DNA of 64,000 nucleotides from Eledone cirrhosa. Lineage: Eukaryota. The stretch is taken from assembly GCA_964016885.1 (NCBI GenBank), contig OZ024747.1, forward strand, positions 56,048,001 through 56,112,000. Direction: 5' to 3'. Position 1 is the stretch's first letter. Each line of letters starts with the position of its first letter. The position numbers and the translations under genes were made by a program. Below the pieces are notes generated by a model. It saw nothing but the letters and a program-made list of their open reading frames with translations. It was not told where the DNA came from and ran no database searches. This document shows, piece after piece, positions 1 to 58,968 of this stretch.

Positions 1-59
1 CAAAGTGTCAGTCTTGTTACATAATGCATGTATCTGAATTATATTGACAAATACATTAA

Positions 60-280
60 CCCTTTAGCATTTAAACTGGTCATATCCGGCCAGAATTCTC
101 TCACCTCTTTCTGCTCAAACTGGCCATAACTGGCTGCTCATACTGATGCTAAGGTATTGTTCTCAAAATAAATAATCTCAAAATCTCATAGATTCGATAT
201 TATGTGAGATAATTTTGTGAGGTAAAGCCTTCACCATGAAAATATAATAGTAAATATAGAGTAATGTAAATGCTAAAGGG
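60..280. mobile_element. piggyBac-like MITE
   Basis: Perfect 14-bp TIRs CCCTTTAGCATTTA (60-73) and TAAATGCTAAAGGG (267-280). TTAA precedes the left end (56-59); the right flank is TATG (degenerate target site). CCC termini with TTAA are piggyBac hallmarks. Confidence 0.75.
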
Positions 281-6472: not shown

Positions 6473-6897
6473 GTGTTTTGGCATAGCTATGGCTCTCTAA
6501 ATGTTTATTTTAAACATACCGTATTTCTTCTGAAATACGAAATTCCAATACATATCTGTATACAACTATGCCAGAAGCTAAATTCTAATTCTATTCTATT
6601 ATAAGTTGAGCCAACTTATACAGCTTCATATGCAAATGAGATTAATCACCTTATTTACTCAGACGAGAAAACCATATATACTCGCCTGTTTTCAAAGTCC
6701 AGTAGTTGCAAGAGCGGGAGGGATCATCTTGATGAGAACCAGTTCAGTTTGAAATGTGCATCCATGATTGTCCACCTTAGTTCTGCTGGACACCGCCAGA
6801 CGGTGTTAGTCGCTGGTGTTTTGGCATAGCTATGGCTCTCTAAATATTTATTGTAAACATAGCATATTTCTTCTGAAATACGAAACTCCAATACATA
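6473..6897 (+). mobile_element. Partial-tandem ORF-less element (343-bp period) with degenerate hammerhead; Penelope pLTR- or retrozyme-like (family E)
   Basis: Direct repeat of about 82 bp at 6473-6554 and 6816-6897, with an HHR-like fold between the copies. A diverged relative lies at 44022-44285. Confidence 0.65.
6723..6768 (+). ncRNA. Degenerate type I hammerhead ribozyme motif
   Basis: ATCATC-TTGATGA-GAAC cagttca GTTT-GAAA-TGTGCA-TC-CATGAT. All three helices are present, with a C3->U change and a C.C mismatch at the base of stem I. Confidence 0.55.
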
Positions 6898-6906
6898 GAT
6901 ATATAT

Positions 6907-7428
6907 GTCAGGTCACTCTTCAGCGCTACTGGTAAAAGGTAAGCCAGTAAAACCTGTGCATGGTTGGATCGTCAGTGACTAAACGAGCAACCCCACAAAC
7001 TTGCTTGGTGAGAGGGGGGGGGGGGGGGGTTGGACACCCTGCTGGATGAAAAACAAAACCCCTTAACGGGTGGAAGAATTCAAGAGAGTCAACGGCCATC
7101 AAATAAAGTATATATTTTGTTAGGTGAGAAACTCCTAGTCTTCATTAAGACATCTCTCTAGGAGAAGGTAATTCTGATATAAAACCTGAGACTTTGTTTG
7201 CATCCAATGATATAGACTAGTTCTTCCTTTTGGTTAAATGCATTCGATGTTCAGAGAGTGGGATTGGTCCCATGCAGAGCCTTTCCTCACTTAAAAAAGC
7301 TTCCAGAACAGGCATTGTTTGATATGTGATTTTTTTTGTGGTTTATTTTATTGCTAAAAACCCACGTCTGTGAGGCTCATGCTTAAGTATCAAGTGATGG
7401 CATTAGTCAAAATCAAGTTTCAGCCATC

Positions 7429-7430: not shown

Positions 7431-7465
<35 letters not shown>

Positions 7466-7555
7466 GAAGGAAATGTGGTAAGGAACCAGATGGACCATAA
7501 CGCACCAAAGTACTCAATACTTAGGGTAGTAGAGTGGGTAATAGGAACGAGTAGG

Positions 7556-7651
7556 ACCCCGATGGCTGAGCTCAAGCCGTTTCGACGGCTAATTCTGGAC
7601 TAAATGAAAATTTTTATCCTGGTACATGAATAGCCGAGCTTCTCAGAGGGT
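7556..7651 (-). ncRNA. Type I hammerhead fold, family A (left arm)
   Basis: The minus strand reads ACCCT-CTGAGAA-G CT CGGCTA...TAGCCG T C-GAAA-CGGCT tgagctc AGCCA-TC-GGGGT. Confidence 0.6.
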
Positions 7652-7916
7652 AATTCCATATATGGTAAAAGTGATTGTCACAAGGATTGGTCAAAAGTTT
7701 GTTGTTGAGACACATAATTCTATCATGGTGCCCTTTGGATCATGCTGTGGTTGGCACTATCAACGCACAGCTGGGTTTCCTCCCCTCCCTCTCCCTCTTT
7801 CTTCTACTGGCAGGTTCAGCTACCCCTTCCTTCCACAAATTGCCATGATAGATTGTGTCTCAACAACAAACTTTTGACCAATCCTTGTGACAATCACTTT
7901 TACCATATATGGAATT

Positions 7917-8012
7917 ACCCCCTGAGAAGCTCGGCTATTCATGTACCAGGATAAAAATTTTCATTTAGTCCAGAATTAGCCGTCGAAACAGCTTGAGCTC
8001 AGCCGTCGGGGT
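7917..8012 (+). ncRNA. Type I hammerhead fold, family A (right arm)
   Basis: Stem I is ACCCC (7917-21) with GGGGT (8008-12). The core is CTGAGAA (7922-28). Stem II is G-C plus CGGCTA/TAGCCG. GAAA is at 7985-88. Stem III is A-CAGCT tgagctc AGCCG-T. The predicted cleavage triplet is GUC (8005-07). Confidence 0.7.
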
Positions 8013-8022
8013 CCTACTCATT

Positions 8023-8058
<36 letters not shown>

Positions 8059-21620: not shown

Positions 21621-21760
21621 TTTAGCACAAATCTACTGAATCAGGTCTGATCTGTGGCTGGATAACAATGAGGACTATATTATCTATCATAGATCTACTT
21701 GATCATGGCTAATGAAAACTAACATATGATATTTCATAGATCTGCTCAATCAAGGTTGAT

Positions 21761-24494
21761 CTGAGACAACACAACAATGATAGTAATATGTACTGTAGAT
21801 GTACTGGACCATGGCTGACCTGAGACAATACAACAATGATAGTAATATGTACTATAGATGTACTGGACCATGGCTGACCTGAGACAACACAACAATGATA
21901 GTAATATGTACTGTAGATGTACTGGACCATGGCTGACCTGAGACAACAATGATAGTAATATGTACTGTAGATCTACTGGACCATGGCTGACCTGAGACAA
22001 CACAACAATGATAGTAATATGTACTGTAGATGTACTGGACCATGGCTGACCTGAGACAACACAACAATGATAGTAATATGTACTGTAGATGTACTGGACC
22101 ATGGCTGACCTGAGACAACACAACAGTGATAGTAATATGTACTGTAGATGTACTGGACCATGGCTGACCTGAGACAACACAACAATGATAGTAATATGTA
22201 CTGTAGATGTACTGGACCATGGCTGACCTGAGACAACACAACAGTGATAGTAATATGTACTGTAGATGTACTGGACCATGGCTGACCTGAGACAACACAA
22301 CAATTATAGTAATGTGTACTGTAGATGTACTGGACCATGGCTGACCTGAGACAACACAACAATGATAGTAATGTGTACTGTAGATGTACTGGACCATGGC
22401 TGACCTGAGACAACACAACAATGATAGTAATGTGTACTGTAGATGTACTGGACCATGTCTGACCTGAGACAACACAACAACAATGATAGTAATATGTACT
22501 GTAGATGTACTGGACCATGGCTGACCTGAGACAACACAACAATGATAGTAATATGTACTGTAGATGTACTGGACCATGGCTGACCTGAGACAACACAACA
22601 ATGATAGTAATATGTACTGTAGATGTACTGGAACATGGCTGACCTGAGACAACACAACAATGATAGTAATATGTACTGTAGATGTACTGGACCATGGCTG
22701 ACCTGAGACAACACAACAATGATAGTAATATGTACTGTAGATGTACTGGACCATGGCTGACCTGAGACAACACAACAATGATAGTAATATGTACTGTAGA
22801 TGTACTGGACCATGGCTGACCTGAGACAACACAACAATGATAGTAATATGTACTGTAGATGTACTGGACCATGGCTGACCTGAGACTACACAACAATGAT
22901 AGTAATATGTACTATAGATGTACTGGACCATGGCTGACCTGAGACAATACAACAATGATAGTAATATGTACTGTAGATGTACTGGACCATGGCTGACCTG
23001 AGACTACACAACAATGATAGTAATATGTACTGTAGATCTACTGGACCATGGCTGACCTGAGACAACACAACAATGATAGTAATATGTACTGTAGATCTAC
23101 TGGACCATGGCTGACCTGAGACTACACAACAATGATAGTAATATGTACTGTAGATCTACTGGACCATGGCTGACCTGAGACAACACAACAATGATAGTAA
23201 TATGTACTGTAGATGTACTGGACCATGGCTGACCTGAGACAACACAACAATGATAGTAATATGTACTGTAGATCTACTGGACCATGTCTGACCTGAGACA
23301 ACACAACAGTGATAGTAATATGTACTGTAGATGTACTGGACCATGGTTGACCTGAGACAACACAACAATGATAGTAATATGTACTGTAGATGTACTGGAC
23401 CATGGCTGACCTGAGGCAACACAACAATGATAGTAATATGTACTGTAGATGTACTGGACCATGGCTGACCTGAGACAACACAACAATGATAGTAATATGT
23501 ACTGTAGATGTACTGGACCATGGCTGACCTGAGACAACACAACAATGATAGTAATATGTACTGTAGATGTACTGGACCATGGCTGACCTGAGACAACACA
23601 ACAATGATAGTAATATGTACTGTAGATGTACTGGACCATGGCTGACCTGAGACTACACAACAATGATAGTAATATGTACTATAGATGTACTGGACCATGG
23701 CTGACCTGAGACAATACAACAATGATAGTAATATGTACTGTAGATGTACTGGACCATGGCTGACCTGAGACTACACAACAATGATAGTAATATGTACTGT
23801 AGATCTACTGGACCATGGCTGACCTGAGACAACACAACAATGATAGTAATATGTACTGTAGATGTACTGGACCATGGCTGACCTGAGACTACACAACAAT
23901 GATAGTAATATGTACTGTAGATCTACTGGACCATGGCTGACCTGAGACAACACAACAATGATAGTAATATGTACTGTAGATGTACTGGACCATGGCTGAC
24001 CTGAGACAACACAACAATGATAGTAATATGTACTGTAGATCTACTGGACCATGTCTGACCTGAGACAACACAACAGTGATAGTAATATGTACTGTAGATG
24101 TACTGGACCATGGTTGACCTGAGACAACACAACAATGATAGTAATATGTACTGTAGATGTACTGGACCATGGCTGACCTGAGGCAACACAACAATGATAG
24201 TAATATGTACTGTAGATGTACTGGACCATGGCTGACCTGAGACAACACAACAATGATAGTAATATGTACTGTAGATGTACTGGACCATGGCTGACCTGAG
24301 ACAACACAACAACAATGATAGTAATATGTACTGTAGATCTACTGGACCATGTCTGACCTGAGACTACACAACAATGATAGTAATATGTACTGTAGATGTA
24401 CTGGACCATGGCTGACCTGAGACAACACAACAACAATGATAGTAATATGTACTGTAGATCTACTGGACCATGTCTGACCTGAGACAACACAACA
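21761..24494. repeat. Homogeneous 59-bp satellite, about 46 copies
   Basis: Unit CTGAGACAACACAACAATGATAGTAATATGTACTGTAGATGTACTGGACCATGGCTGAC with few variants and no unique spacers. Confidence 0.98.
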
Positions 24495-29407: not shown

Positions 29408-29410
<3 letters not shown>

Positions 29411-29613
29411 GAAGGAAATGTGTTAAGGAAACAGATTGACCAGAACGCACCAAAGTACTCAATGCTTAGGGTAGTAGAGTGGGTAATGGGAACAAGTATG
29501 ACCCCGACAGCAGAGCTCAAGCCGTTTCGACGGCTAATTCTGGAATTTGTGGTTTTATTTGGTTTCTTTTAGCCGTCGAAACGGCTTGAGCTCTACTGTC
29601 ATACTTGTTCCTA
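29408..29613. mobile_element. Fold-back element, family A (short arms)
   Basis: Tail at 29408-29488, inverted arms at 29489-29537 and 29569-29613, (TA)n on both sides. Only the GAAA/stem III half of the HHR remains. Confidence 0.85.
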
Positions 29614-35731: not shown

Positions 35732-35981
35732 CATCATCATCATCATCATCATTTTACGTCCGCTTTTCCCTGCTTGCAAGGGTATATATATATGTATATA
35801 TGTATGAATATATATATATATATATATAGATAGATTTTGATTATATGTTGGTTGTATACCAACACCTCAGTATGCAGGCTGGAGCACTCGACGAAGTGCG
35901 CAGGTTGGTTTGGTTACTCCAGAGTAATGTAAAATAAAGTTAGATAAAAAGTCAAATGTTTAAAATTTAGCTTCGTTTGTT

Positions 35982-36036
35982 ACTGCTATATATATTTCAG
36001 TGACAGCCATCTTTGGCTGTGACCTCTTCAGGCAGT
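35982..36036 (-). ncRNA. Type I hammerhead ribozyme, family B
   Basis: Minus strand: ACTGC-CTGAAGA-GGT c ACAGCCA aaga TGGCTGT c ACT-GAAA-TATATA-TA-GCAGT. Confidence 0.85.
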
Positions 36037-36215
36037 CCGAATTAGTGTGGTATAGACAAGTACATATGTTGTTGAGGTGTGTAATATTGTCAATACTCTG
36101 ATATGCCCAGTTCCTCAGTGAAATAACAACCCAACCAGGAACTGGGCATATCAGAGTATTGACAATATTACACACCTCAACAACATATGTACTTGTCTAT
36201 ACCACACTAATTCGG

Positions 36216-36270
36216 ACTGCCTGAAGAGGTCACAGCCAAAGATGGCTGTAACTGAAATATATATAGCAGT
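36216..36270 (+). ncRNA. Type I hammerhead ribozyme, family B (inverted arm)
   Basis: Stem I is ACTGC (36216-20) with GCAGT (36266-70). CTGAAGA is at 36221-27 and GAAA at 36254-57. Stem III is the palindromic ATATATAT. Predicted cleavage is after 36265. Confidence 0.85.
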
Positions 36271-36320
36271 AATAAACGAAGCTAAATTTTAAACATTTGA
36301 CTTTTTATCTAACTTTATTT

Positions 36321-36353
<33 letters not shown>

Positions 36354-38558: not shown

Positions 38559-38760
38559 ATAGGAAAATGTATGACCCCGACGGCAGAGTTCAAGCCGTTT
38601 TGATGGCTATTTCTGGACTAGTCCAGAAATAATCGTCGAAACAGCTTGAGCTCTGCCGTCGGAGTCATACATTTTCCTATCACCCACTCTACTACCCTAA
38701 GTATTGAGTACTCTGATGCGTTATGGTCCATCTGGTTCCTTACCACAACTCCTTCGTTTT
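38559..38760. mobile_element. Fold-back element, family A (spacerless)
   Basis: 61-bp arms at 38559-38619 and 38620-38680 meet at GGACTAGTCC. The tail is at 38681-38760 and the flanks are (TA)n. Confidence 0.85.
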
Positions 38761-38932
38761 ATATATATATATATATATATCATCATCATTGTTTAACATC
38801 TATCTTCCATACGAGCATGGAATATATATATATATATGCATATATATATATGTATGATGGATATATTTATATATGTATATATATGTATATATATATATAT
38901 ATGTGTATATATATATATATATACATGTATAT

Positions 38933-47112: not shown

Positions 47113-47507
47113 GGAGGCACATAGCTTAGTGGTTAGAGCATTGGCCTTGCAATCAAAAGGTTGTGAGTTCAATTCTCAGACCGGGTGATGTGTTGTTTCC
47201 TTGAGCAAGACACTTTATTTCACATTGCTCCAGTTTACTCAGCTGTAGAAATGAGATGATAGGGACTGGGGTCCCTATCATTCCACTGCAAAGTGGTCGT
47301 GGAGGTGCTACGGCAAAAAAGCACCCAGCCCACACTGTAAAGTGGACGTGTAGGCGCCTCGGAAAAAAAAACAACCTAGCACTCACTGTAAATGAGGTTG
47401 GTGTTAGGAAGGGCATCCAGCTGTAGAAATCAAGCCAGCATCAGTTCCCGTCCCACCCTTGCAAGCAGGGAAAAGCGGATGTAAAATGGAATGATGATGA
47501 TGATGAT
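47113..47507 (+). mobile_element. CORE-type SINE with RTE-derived tail
   Basis: Near-identical to 32331-32688, with an (ATG)n end. Confidence 0.9.
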
Positions 47508-52257: not shown

Positions 52258-52573
52258 TTTTGAGTATATGTTGGTTGTATACCAACACCTCAGTATGCAG
52301 ATTGGACCACTCGATGAAGTGCGCAGGTTGGTTTGGTTATTCCGGAGTTATGTAAAATAAAATAAAATAAATAAGTCAAATATTTAAAATTTGGCTTCGT
52401 TTATTACTGCTATATATATTTCGGTGACAGCCATCTTTGGCTGTGACCTCTTCAGGCAGTCCGAATTAGTGTGGTAGAGATGAGTACCCATGTTGTTGAG
52501 GTGTATAACTTTGTCAATACTCTGATATGCCCAGTTCCTGGTTGGGTTGTTATTTCTCTGAGGAACTGGAATC
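52258..52573 (-). mobile_element. Family B HHR element, single arm plus tail, in (TA)n
   Basis: Collinear with 35833-36115. Ends with the hairpin CCAGTTCCT-21nt-AGGAACTGG (52531-52569). Confidence 0.9.
52406..52460 (-). ncRNA. Type I hammerhead ribozyme, family B (best-preserved copy)
   Basis: ACTGC-CTGAAGA-GGT c ACAGCCA aaga TGGCTGT c ACC-GAAA-TATATA-TA-GCAGT, with the canonical G10.1-C11.1 pair. Confidence 0.9.
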
Positions 52574-54311: not shown

Positions 54312-54370
54312 TATATACATATATATATATATATATAAAGTCAATTACATGAACTCATAATCCTTTATTT

Positions 54371-54426
54371 ACTGCTATATATATTTCGATGATAGCCATT
54401 GAACGGCTATGACCTCATCAGGCAGT
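54371..54426 (-). ncRNA. Type I hammerhead ribozyme, family B-related subfamily (insert 54338-54500)
   Basis: ACTGC-CTGATGA-GGT c ATAGCCG ttcaa TGGCTAT c ATC-GAAA-TATATA-TA-GCAGT. Confidence 0.9.
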
Positions 54427-54525
54427 TAGTCAGTTCTTAGATATGCCAGCTCTGTGTTTATAGTGTTGATGGTATCAGAGCCTTGGGACATAGGGAGGGA
54501 ATATATATATATATATATATATATG

Positions 54526-54690: not shown

Positions 54691-55495
54691 CCTCCTTGCT
54701 TCGTTTTCCCAATAACTTATCCAGTTATTGAAGCCCTGGGGTGAAGTGGTATCTTGTCTTTAAAGCATAGAAATATCCGAGACCCCCAGTAGAAAACTGA
54801 TGAGGACCCCTCCCCCCCCCCCCCCCGCGTTCTTTCTATCTTCATATTCCCACAGCATTTTAAGTTACCTTAAATAGCACCTACACAGCCATTTCTATTC
54901 TCCATATATTTCATCATGTTTTTCGCTGTGACTGTTCTTCTCTCCCCATCTACCTTCCTATTTCTCCTCTTTATACTCTCACCACTCTTTCTCCCTATCT
55001 ACTCTTAACCCACTTTCTTCCCCTCCCTTTCTCCCTCTCACTTTCACCCCCTTGTCTGACCGTTTAGCTTACCGTCTGACCGTCTCACTTACAACTGCGG
55101 CGATTGGACGTGTGACTTGTTCCTCTCGACCACTCAGTCTTGAACTTAAGTTCTCTTATCGAGTGGTCTTGGATTTCCTAACTATAGTTGCTCGCACATT
55201 GCTCGGTTTGTTGTTGTTTTTTTCGCTGTTTTGTTACTCTTTTCTCTTTTCTTCCCCTTTGCGTTCCTTCCCTCCTTCCTTCATTTTCCCAATAACTTAT
55301 CCAGTTATTGACGCTCTAGGGTGAGGTAACTTGTCTTTAAAGCGTAGAAATATCTGACACCCCCAGTAGACAACTGATGAGGAAACACCCCCATCTCATT
55401 CTTGCTTTCTTCGTATTCCCACTGTATTTTAAATTATAAGTGCCATGGACTGAGTGCTCTACTACTTTGGATATAACCTCCCAGTGTTCCACCAC
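54688..55495 (+). mobile_element. Partial-tandem ORF-less element (580-bp period) in (TA)n
   Basis: A diverged direct repeat of about 170-180 bp starts at 54688 and at 55268. The interior is pyrimidine-rich. Confidence 0.65.
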
Positions 55496-56292: not shown

Positions 56293-57580
56293 CTCACCTA
56301 CACAGACCTCTCACATCTACACACCTTCACAGACCTGTCTCACCTACACACCTTCACAGACCTCTCACATCTACACACCTTCACAGACCTGTCTCACCTA
56401 CACACCTACACAGAGCTCTCACATCTACACACCTTCACAGACCTGTCTCACCTACACACCTTCACAGACATCTCACATCTACACACCTTCACAGAGCTCT
56501 CACATCTACACACCTTCACAGAGCTCTCACATCTACACACCTTCACAGACCTCTCACATCTACACACCTTCACAGCCCTCTCCCACCTACACACCTTCAC
56601 AGACCTCTCTCACATCTACCACCTTTAAAGCACTCTCACATCTACACACCTACACAGCACTCTTACATCTGCACACCATCACAGAACTCTCACATCTACA
56701 CACCTTCACAGACCTCTCACATCTACACACTTTCACAGAGCTCTCATATCTACCACCTTCACAGACCTCTCTCACCTTCACAGCTCTCTCACATCTACCA
56801 CCTTCACAGACCTCTCATATCTACCACCTTCACAGACCTGTCTCACCTACACACCTTCACAGAGCTCTCACATCTACACACCTTCACAGAGCTCTCACAT
56901 CTACACACCTTCACAGAGCTCTCATATCTACCACCTTCACAGACCTCTCTCAACTACACACCTTCACAGACCTCTCACATCTACACTCCTTCACAGCCCT
57001 CTCCCACCTACACACCTTCACAGACCTCTCTCACATCTACCACCTTTAAAGCACTCTCACATTTACACACCTACACAGCACTCTTACATCTGCACACCAT
57101 CACAGAACTCTCACATCTACCACCTTCACAGAGCTCTCATATCTACCCATCTTCACAGAGCTCTCACATCTACACACATTCACAGAGCTCTCATATCTAC
57201 ACACCTTCACAGAGCTCTCACATCTACATACCTTCACAGAACTCTCATATCTACACACCTTCACAGAGCTCTCACATCTACACACCTTCACAGAACTCTC
57301 ACATCACACCTTCACAGACCTCTCTCATCTACACACCTTCACAGAGCTCTCACATCTACACACCTTCACAGATCTCTCACATCTACACACCTTCACAGAC
57401 CTCTCACATCTACACACCTTCACAGATCTCTCACATCTACACACCTTCACAGACCTCTCACATCTACACACCTTCACAGAACTCTCTCATCTACACACCT
57501 TCACAGACCTCTCACATCTACACACCTTCACAGAACTCTCTCATCTACACACCTTCACAGACCTCTCTCATATCTACACT
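56293..57580. repeat. 27-bp minisatellite, about 47 copies
   Basis: Unit CACAGACCTCTCACATCTACACACCTT. A variant block at 56571 recurs at 56992. Confidence 0.97.
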
Positions 57581-58015: not shown

Positions 58016-58307
58016 CAAGCAAATTATAAACGTAAACATGTAAGTATGTTTTTGAAATGGTGCGCGAGTTTGAAATTAGAAATTAGAAATAAGCTTTCAC
58101 CGTATTTTAGACTAAAGAAATTTCTAGCCTGATAGTGGGGTTTATAACCCTCGGAGAAATGGAAAAAGATGAGTGTTGCCGTACATGGAGCAACACTCAT
58201 TTTGTACGGCATCATGTACGGCAACACTCATCTTTTTCCATTTCTCCGAGGGTTATAAACCCCACTATCAGGCTACAAATTTCTTTAGTCTAAAATACGG
58301 TGAAAGC
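58016..58307. mobile_element. Fold-back element, family C, in (TA)n
   Basis: 95-bp inverted arms at 58093-58187 and 58213-58307 (1 mismatch seen), with a one-sided tail at 58016-58092. Confidence 0.8.
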
Positions 58308-58323
58308 ATATATATTTATATAT

Positions 58324-58681
58324 GTGAGAAGGAATTTGTAGTTTACTTGAAGCATTGAATATGGTATAAAGAATTCGAAGTTTGAAAGCCACAGCAATGT
58401 GAGTTTGGACGGAGAATAATTAAATCATATGAAACAGGGCTTGTTTTTTTTCCTTAATTTATTTATATGTCTTGATATTTCAAGATTAATATCTCTTCTT
58501 CTGGGGTAAATAAAGGAACTTTTCCAGTGTTCGATGTGGCTTGGTAGAATAGATATTAATCTCGAAATATCAGGACATACGAATAAATTAAGGTAAAAAA
58601 AACAAGCCATGTTTCTTACGATTTAATTATTCTCCATCCAAACCTGCATTGTTGTAGCTTTCAAACTTTGAATTCTTTATA
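58324..58681. mobile_element. Fold-back element, family D, with minimal hammerhead relic
   Basis: Diverged arms of about 130 bp at 58365-58494 and 58551-58681, with a tail at 58324-58364. The minus strand at about 58467-58507 reads CCC-CAGAAGA-A GAGAT atta ATCTT-GAAA-TA-TC-AAGAC. Confidence 0.75.
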
Positions 58682-58743: not shown

Positions 58744-58747
<4 letters not shown>

Positions 58748-58966
58748 AACCAGTAAGACCCCGACGGCTGAGCTCAAGCTGTTTCGACGGCTAATTCTGG
58801 ACTAAATGAAAACTTATCCTGGTATTTAAATAGCCGAGCTTCTCAAGGGGTAATTCCATATATGGTCAAAGTGATTGTCAAAAGTCAGTAGTAATTCTGT
58901 GATTGCAAATTAGTAGGGGAGATGGTGGCTAAACCTGCCAGTAGGAGAAAAAGGAGAGGGGGTGGA

Positions 58967-58968
<2 letters not shown>
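58744..58968 (-). mobile_element. Family A element, single tail-less arm
   Basis: Collinear with the 7.5-kb element and starts at the same TAGGAAC boundary. Confidence 0.85.
58758..58851 (-). ncRNA. Type I hammerhead with U3-A8 variant core
   Basis: ACCCC-TTGAGAA-G CT CGGCTA...TAGCCG T C-GAAA-CAGCT tgagctc AGCCG-TC-GGGGT. Confidence 0.75.

What the first reader, a model, noticed from the sequence alone, without database searches (positions are those of the whole stretch)
58758..58851. Large hammerhead with non-canonical UUGAGAA (U3-A8) core in family A
Seen: a complete type I topology with stem I ACCCC/GGGGT, a long stem II, GAAA, a 6-bp stem III whose loop carries the palindrome GAGCTC, and a GUC triplet. 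The core is UUGAGAA here and CUGAGAA in both 7.5-kb arms, instead of CUGANGA. Established: positions 3 and 8 form a Watson-Crick pair, and the U3-A8 swap is a tolerated variant. Inference: the family consensus is an active U3-A8 variant that CTGANGA-based searches would miss, and the C3.A8 copies are inactivated.
Basis: partly seen in the sequence, partly recalled or inferred. Interest (0 to 1): 0.75.

Follow-up and report, generated by a model that had tools for sequence, protein, structure and literature searches.

The report
Mismatched hammerhead core still apparently cuts
This is a damaged copy of a hammerhead (self-cutting RNA) motif at the end of an abundant Penelope-type jumping gene; its U-A core pair is a published variant, but the family spread for a long period with that pair mismatched, and inserts from that period still end exactly at the predicted cut site, so the mismatched RNA was likely still being cut.

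Summary
The motif is real but lies on the minus strand, and this copy's stem III has an A.C mismatch. It sits in the pLTR of a Hydra-clade Penelope-like element (intact 719-aa ORF elsewhere). Exact-pattern counts of positions 3/8: U3-A8 5,312, C3.A8 1,768, U3.G8 47, C3-G8 11, A3.G8 1 (7,139 matches). U3-A8 is the majority and is published for PLE hammerheads (2014). C3.A8 copies are not decayed offshoots: an ORF tree places them along the trunk, between old and young U3-A8 subfamilies (C3 clade rejected, p-AU 8e-46). About 120-bp fold-back inserts have both arms ending on the first base after GUC (188 strand matches; 2 at +2, 21 that include C17), a likely footprint of cleavage in the germ line. 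They also occur with tails of the C3.A8 period (68 matches; 8 of 17 fetched loci carry tail types seen only with C3), at roughly 0.4-0.7 of the young rate. Cutting in trans by a U3-A8 partner is not excluded; no cleavage was measured. This scan already noted the family, the mismatch phase and cut-site ends on other DNA; none of the notes shown breaks the footprint down by core state.

The parts
58746..58968 (-). Truncated, tail-less pLTR fragment of a Hydra-clade Penelope-like element, between two (TA)n tracts
   Evidence: 98-99% identical copies elsewhere
58847..58851 (-). Hammerhead stem I, 5' strand (ACCCC)
58840..58846 (-). Core U3 U4 G5 A6 G7 A8 A9 (U3-A8 variant)
   Evidence: family counts
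58786..58839 (-). Long stem II: G10.1-C11.1, internal loop, 6-bp helix, inner hairpin
   Evidence: constrained fold
58800..58805 (-). TTAGTC inside stem II; likely transcription start of the pLTR promoter (inferred)
   Evidence: 87 of 171 short arms end 38-45 nt before the cut; 10 of 39 truncated 5' ends at -43..-34
58782..58785 (-). G12 A13 A14 A15.1
58764..58782 (-). Stem III with palindromic loop (GAGCUC at 58775-58770); A.C mismatch at 58780 in this copy
58762..58765 (-). GUC triplet and predicted cut between 58763 and 58762
   Evidence: genome-wide arm ends at this base
58758..58762 (-). Stem I, 3' strand (GGGGU)
58746..58751 (-). GGTTCC, fixed end of tail-less arms about 20 nt after the cut (likely first reverse-transcription start)
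   Evidence: 151 of 437 copies end at +20..24 and 173 of 437 at +100..104
7464..7728 (-). Arm with tail of a two-armed insertion; C3.A8 core at 7646-7640, AUC triplet
7787..8025 (+). Tail-less arm of the same insertion; C3.A8 core at 7922-7928, stem III mismatch
29408..29610 (.). Fold-back stub of an older subfamily; both arms lack the 5' core half
38560..38765 (.). Fold-back stub of an older subfamily, turning near TAGTC in stem II; no 5' core half

Best explanation
The stretch is a truncated, stem-III-damaged copy of a type I hammerhead motif in the pLTR of a Hydra-clade Penelope-like retrotransposon, whose family carries mostly U3-A8, passed through a long C3.A8 phase, and likely cut a minority of its RNAs after GUC in both states. 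Shown: motif, host element, core counts, order of subfamilies, two fixed 3' ends, and a sharp set of 5' ends on the first base after GUC. Inferred mechanism: most transcripts start inside stem II (about 41 nt before the cut), so their 5' copy has no core, and only the 3' pLTR or read-through RNA forms a whole ribozyme. The element's RT primes at two sites 20 and 100 nt after the cut, one from each strand of a (TA)n break, and runs to the RNA 5' end. Uncut RNA gives ordinary copies. Cut RNA gives 120-bp two-armed inserts, or copies that start at +1. A cut in the 3' pLTR would part the ORF from both priming sites, so cutting is not needed for copying; a weaker C3.A8 core could therefore persist for about 0.06 substitutions per site before U3 returned and later changes improved the predicted fold.
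For: Host: ORF in the same sense as the motif, with RWR, DKT, CxCx5C, CxxC and CxH motifs as defined for Hydra; intact 719-aa ORF with ATG 190 nt after the cut. Counts. Ladder: ORF tree of 51 elements, C3.A8 rows on the trunk, young U3-A8 clade 100/95, C3 clade rejected p-AU 8e-46 (33-row version p 2e-5 and 0.002). A pLTR tree with positions 3 and 8 masked gives the same order. Divergence falls 0.067, 0.067, 0.043, 0.023, 0.018, 0.017, 0.004 along the ladder. Cut footprint: of the first 50 of 748 short fold-backs, 21 have both arms at +1 and 9 more have one arm there (counted by eye); young tails 188 strand matches at +1, 2 at +2, 21 including C17; joints mostly carry extra A/T; 6 of 39 truncated 5' ends of near-full-length copies lie at -2..+1 against 0.9 expected (P 2.5e-4). 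C3 period: 68 matches; 8 of 17 fetched loci have tail types found only with C3 cores (13 of 13 and 5 of 5). Published in vitro work shows core mutants do not affect PLE insertion (PMC11167929).
Against: No cleavage was measured. The mini-inserts lack the core, so their core state is read from tail SNPs; 9 of 17 carry a tail type shared by C3 (23) and U3 (8) copies, and the table of tail types includes best-hit-selected loci. In a dimer through the palindromic stem III (-26 to -31 kcal/mol for intact copies) a U3-A8 core of another RNA could do the cutting. The footprint rate does not track the 3-8 pair simply: the oldest tail class, mostly U3-A8, shows the lowest rate (31 per 14,252). In C3 and early young copies an alternative hairpin that hides GAAA is predicted to dominate (median P 0.54-0.75). 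Single C3/G8 mutants abolish cleavage in vitro (PMC11167929), and only the G3-C8 swap rescued in one scan (PMC9901934). The oldest U3.G8 rows do not form one group, and protein outgroups give an unsupported root (0.096).
Confidence: 0.72

Rival explanations
1. C3.A8 cores were catalytically dead. RNAs of that period were cut only in trans, by U3-A8 cores of older transcribed copies pairing through the palindromic stem III.
For: Stem III plus loop self-dimerises strongly in prediction. Dimer action is the published model for metazoan PLE hammerheads (PMC4209133). About 2,000 older U3-A8 core copies were present. 3/8 single mutants are inactive in vitro.
Against: C3-period inserts arise at 0.4-0.7 of the young rate and above the rate of the older, mostly U3-A8 class, which is a lot to ask of incidental old transcripts.
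Confidence: 0.2
2. The +1 ends are not ribozyme cuts but a second transcription start, a protein nuclease site or an RT stop at the helix junction; the motif may be kept as a structure the element's protein recognises.
For: Footprint rate is not highest wherever the 3-8 pair is Watson-Crick. No RNA reads ended at the cut in Anolis. A minority of joints carry an extra C, as a cap could give.
Against: Single-base sharpness at the predicted site (188 against 2 and 21). A stall at stem III should include C17. Extra A/T at joints fits run-off at an RNA end (inference). The core letters stay fixed while N7 and loop II change.
Confidence: 0.08
3. One reading: U3-A8 is the active form and C3.A8 copies are inactivated derivatives.
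For: U3-A8 is 74% of core copies; young U3-A8 tails give 2.5-fold more cut-site inserts per uncut arm than CC tails (Fisher p 1.4e-11); U3 returned on the trunk.
Against: 1,768 C3.A8 copies; trunk position; ORF-bearing two-armed C3.A8 insertions; cut-site inserts with C3-only tails.
Confidence: 0.05

Closest known systems
U3-A8 minimal hammerheads of Schistosoma mansoni Cercyon PLEs (Cervera and De la Pena 2014, PMC4209133; parts 1-2 of 4 of the text read)
   Same: Type I motif in a pLTR, U3-A8 instead of C3-G8, conserved G10.1-C11.1, short stem I, palindromic helix III region, opposite-strand pairs close together.
   Different: Here stem III is 5-6 bp and can close in a monomer; stem II spans 54 nt with two helices; a quarter of copies are C3.A8; host is Hydra clade, not Cercyon.
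Hydra clade of C-terminal EN+ Penelope-like elements (Craig et al. 2021, PMC8557442; passages, section 11, File S1 Hydra sheet and File S2 read)
   Same: RWR(K), DKT, CxCx5C, CxxC/CxH motifs, C-terminal GIY-YIG, (TA)n targets, sense hammerhead near the 3' end, inverted truncated copies with a tail at one end.
   Different: All 26 Hydra rows in File S2 read CUGANGA (found with a descriptor that asks for it) with short stem II; the listed Hydra-1_oBim motif is another sequence; the unit here is 3.1-3.5 kb rather than under 3 kb.
PAc Poseidon element of Anolis (Frangieh et al. 2024, PMC11167929; passages and second part of main text read)
   Same: Two internal RT start sites that bound the tail; hammerhead not needed for insertion.
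   Different: They found no RNA reads ending at the cut; here genomic inserts end there. Their 3/8 single mutants were inactive; here a natural 3.8 mismatch spread.
Natural core variants of Perreault et al. 2011 (PMC3088659; passages read)
   Same: U3-A8 covariation reported in nature.
   Different: No C3.A8 family was mentioned in the passages I saw; supplements not read.

Membership tests
Type I hammerhead ribozyme | Three helices around the core, stem I open | tested here: met
   Constrained fold possible for window and family copies; it is the MFE in the youngest subfamily but not in this copy
Type I hammerhead ribozyme | Core U4 G5 A6 N7, A9, G12 A13 A14, A15.1-U16.1, H17 | tested here: met
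   Unchanged in the majority letters of all 7 subfamilies while N7 varies
Type I hammerhead ribozyme | Watson-Crick pair between positions 3 and 8 | tested here: inconclusive
   Met in this copy and 5,323 of 7,139 matches; not met in 1,768 C3.A8, 47 U3.G8 and 1 A3.G8
Type I hammerhead ribozyme | Match to a curated Rfam hammerhead model | tested here: not met
   long stem II and variant core
Type I hammerhead ribozyme | Self-cleavage 3' of H17 | not testable with these tools
   Indirect only: genomic arm ends at +1
Type I hammerhead ribozyme | Stem I / stem II tertiary contact | not tested
   Both stems have internal loops; no conserved pairing was established
Hydra-clade PLE | RT with RWK-like and DKT motifs, C-terminal GIY-YIG with CxCx5C linker, CxxC and CxH | tested here: met
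   Read in P0001 and the 719-aa ORF against the definition; Pfam gave 0 hits for 6 of 7 frames and one weak RVT_1
Hydra-clade PLE | Insertion in (TA)n, pLTRs, inverted truncated copy, tail at one end | tested here: met
Hydra-clade PLE | Placement in an RT phylogeny with named Hydra elements | not tested
   No named reference proteins in hand; homologues were almost all unnamed
Non-LTR retrozyme | Non-coding tandem unit of a few hundred bases | tested here: not met
   The unit is a 3.1-3.5 kb coding element

The most novel reading that the evidence does not exclude
A natural hammerhead with a C3.A8 mismatch, a state expected to be dead from in vitro work, self-cleaved in the germ line at about half the rate of its Watson-Crick descendants. 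The genome preserves a dated series of its own cleavage products, giving an in vivo fitness record of a ribozyme core that went U3-A8 to C3.A8 and back, with later changes that improved its fold.
Probability: 0.4. Interest if true: 0.72.

Novelty: new variant of a known kind. Interest (0 to 1): 0.5.

Why it matters
Whether Penelope hammerheads cut in vivo, and whether cutting matters for transposition, is open: the one biochemical study found cutting dispensable and no cut ends in RNA data. This family offers over a hundred inserts that end on the predicted cut base, and natural core states of known relative age. That makes two things directly testable with natural sequences: tolerance of a 3.8 mismatch in a cellular setting, and cis versus dimer cutting. 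The U3-A8 variant as such is not new.

Tried and rejected
Rfam scans found no hammerhead. An alternative register (N7 deleted, extra A before G10.1) was rejected because the position after A6 varies over all four bases. A C3-G8 subfamily was sought and not found: 81 loose G8 hits were partly chance, and the tight pattern gave 11 C3-G8 of 59. A small old subfamily is U3.G8 in most copies (24 of 30 G8, 23 of them U3). Direct IQ-TREE run timed out. Protein outgroup rooting was unsupported, so direction rests on the divergence gradient. over-merged loci (21 instead of 38) and was replaced. Rows dropped: ORF tree used 51 of 120 loci (10 had no single core label, 4 of them mixed; 14 too short; the rest lacked the ORF segment); one search left out loci L001-L030 and L061-L120, which were picked by best hit or by G8. 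Four papers on the 3-8 pair and PLE dimers were not held, so kinetic values for C3.A8 are not cited. Paper searches that found no report of a natural C3.A8 family or of genomic cut-site inserts; subscription papers and most supplements were not covered.

Full report
Observation. The window is C7:56048001-56112000 of a 3.0-Gb animal genome; earlier notes of this scan call it octopus-type, which I did not test. The motif reads on the minus strand from 58851 to 58758: stem I, UUGAGAA, G10.1, a 54-nt stem II region, GAAA, stem III with GAGCUC in its loop, GUC, stem I. In this copy position 15.3 is A facing C, so stem III is broken; the hammerhead fold lies 5.6 kcal/mol above the free ensemble. Rfam has no match.

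Host element. The motif lies in a 220-bp fragment between (TA)n tracts with at least 2,237 candidates in the genome. Loci with two copies hold an ORF in the same sense. Its product has RWR, DKT, a CxCx5C linker, a C-terminal GIY-YIG region and CxxC/CxH, which is the published definition of the Hydra clade of Penelope-like elements (PMC8557442 section 11). An intact 719-aa ORF starts 190 nt after the predicted cut, and one tandem array has 3,531-bp units that differ at 1 base. 402 of 7,996 scored proteins match at E<=1e-20, nearly all unnamed. Clade placement rests on motifs, not on a tree.

Positions 3 and 8. With one 20-nt pattern design: U3-A8 4,182 + 1,130, C3.A8 585 + 1,183, G8 59, of which 47 U3, 11 C3, 1 A3. 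That is 74%, 25%, 0.7% and 0.2% of 7,139; purine-3 with A8 and pyrimidine-8 were not counted, and exact patterns undercount old copies. Position 7 takes all four bases in different subfamilies, which fixes the register. The other core letters are the same in the majority of all seven subfamilies. All 26 Hydra rows in the published table read CUGANGA, so U3-A8 is probably derived here. U3-A8 in PLE hammerheads was reported in 2014, about 1,300 hits in Schistosoma (PMC4209133), and in nature in 2011 (PMC3088659).

C3.A8 is a phase of the lineage. A tree of 192 pLTR pieces with positions 3 and 8 masked is a ladder. A tree on 918 nt of ORF from 51 elements gives the same order: old U3-A8 and U3.G8, then 18 C3.A8 elements along about 0.06 substitutions per site of trunk, then 24 young U3-A8 elements (100/95); a C3 clade is rejected at p-AU 8e-46 (33-row version). 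The group was defined by the core base, though I had seen earlier trees. Direction comes from divergence to subfamily majority, 0.067 to 0.004 along the ladder, since protein outgroups did not root the tree. The youngest subfamily gained an A10.2-U11.2 pair and a G.U in stem III; its hammerhead helices reach P about 0.75, against 0.09-0.36 for stem III in C3 and early young copies, where a hairpin that hides GAAA is predicted to win. The old U3-A8 group also folds well (0.77).

Ends of copies. 3' ends fall at two sites, +20..24 (151 of 437) and +100..104 (173 of 437) after the cut; 7 of 437 fall at 0..4. This matches the two internal RT starts shown for an Anolis PLE (PMC11167929). About 53,600 arms run across the cut site, far more than hold the whole core; short arms peak 38-45 nt before the cut, at TTAGTC in stem II (87 of 171). 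I read this as a transcription start; an RT stop is possible.

Footprint of cutting. 748 fold-backs turn within 30 nt around the cut. In the first 50, counted by eye, 21 have both arms ending on G1.1, 9 have one arm there, 9 run past the cut, 10 end downstream and 1 is unclear. The 15 fetched are about 120-bp inserts with one tail arm and one short arm. For young tails the both-arm pattern has 188 strand matches, against 2 at +2 and 21 that include C17; patterns with a 0-nt joint or a G after the first arm are not in the 188. Joints mostly carry 1-3 extra A/T. Among 83 near-full-length 5' ends, 44 include the whole core and 6 of the other 39 lie at -2..+1 (expected 0.9, P 2.5e-4). I infer RT run-off at an RNA 5' end made by cleavage after GUC.

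By core state. CC-type tails (late C3.A8 plus early revertants) give 68 matches and CA-type tails (old U3-A8 plus early C3.A8) 31. Per uncut arm: 0.91%, 0.36%, 0.22%. Per core-bearing copy, using rough splits, I estimate 6.5%, 4.3% and 1.2%. Of 17 CC loci fetched, 6 carry a tail type seen with C3 in 13 of 13 core-bearing copies and 2 a type seen with C3 in 5 of 5; 9 carry a type shared by C3 (23) and U3 (8). So RNA of the C3.A8 period was likely cut at the same bond. Whether its own core did so, or a partner through the palindromic stem III, cannot be told from DNA.

Against. No cleavage was measured and this copy is probably a poor cutter. Single 3/8 mutants were inactive in the Anolis motif, and a pairwise scan of a type III hammerhead rescued only G3-C8 (PMC9901934). 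The oldest, mostly U3-A8 class has the lowest footprint rate, so the footprint is not a clean activity meter. Kinetic papers on the 3-8 pair were not held.

Earlier notes. After my own tree was built, look-ups showed that this scan had already described the family, the mismatch phase with restoration, the start inside stem II, and cut-site ends in other genomes. These are unchecked AI notes and not independent support. None of the lines shown reports cut-site inserts from the C3.A8 period.

Verdict. A real motif of a known kind in a known class of element. The U3-A8 headline is published and the 'inactivated copies' claim is wrong as to history. The interest lies in the trunk-level mismatch phase and its cleavage footprints. 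Interest 0.5.

Noticed in passing
L360 (G000:C1:437199000-437208900); also G000:C1:91476608-91487253: Head-to-tail arrays of the whole 3.53-kb element, four units each; two L360 units differ at 1 of 3,531 bases and keep 718-aa ORFs. Fits read-through or circular templates.
   Followed up: partly
L281-L290: Youngest subfamily (A10.2, G.U in stem III), end branches 0-0.011, about half of the 4,182 matches; predicted to fold better than its ancestors; probably still active.
   Followed up: partly
window 35950-36300, 52370-52480, 54340-54445: A second hammerhead family with canonical CUGA(A/U)GA core and an AT-palindrome after GAAA; 35927-36325 is a fold-back.
   Followed up: no
window 54770-54870, 55350-55440, 6850-6950: Further CUGANGA motifs in repeated sequence, not checked for the second core half.
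   Followed up: no
window 58089-58311 and 58365-58681: Two palindromes (91% and 81%) just beside the finding, unrelated in sequence to this pLTR.
   Followed up: no
window 21757-24494 and 56295-57571: 59-bp satellite (46 copies, 96% matches) and 27-bp satellite (48 copies).
   Followed up: no
window 47122-47179: tRNA-like match at the head of a repeat with several copies in the window, probably a SINE.
   Followed up: no
L017, L235, L244, L338, L443: Arms that share stem III and the 3' strand of stem II but have a different upstream sequence; possibly a related family.
   Followed up: no
L171-L200: Small old subfamily in which 23 of 30 copies are U3.G8, a possible trace of the path from C3-G8 to U3-A8.
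   Followed up: partly
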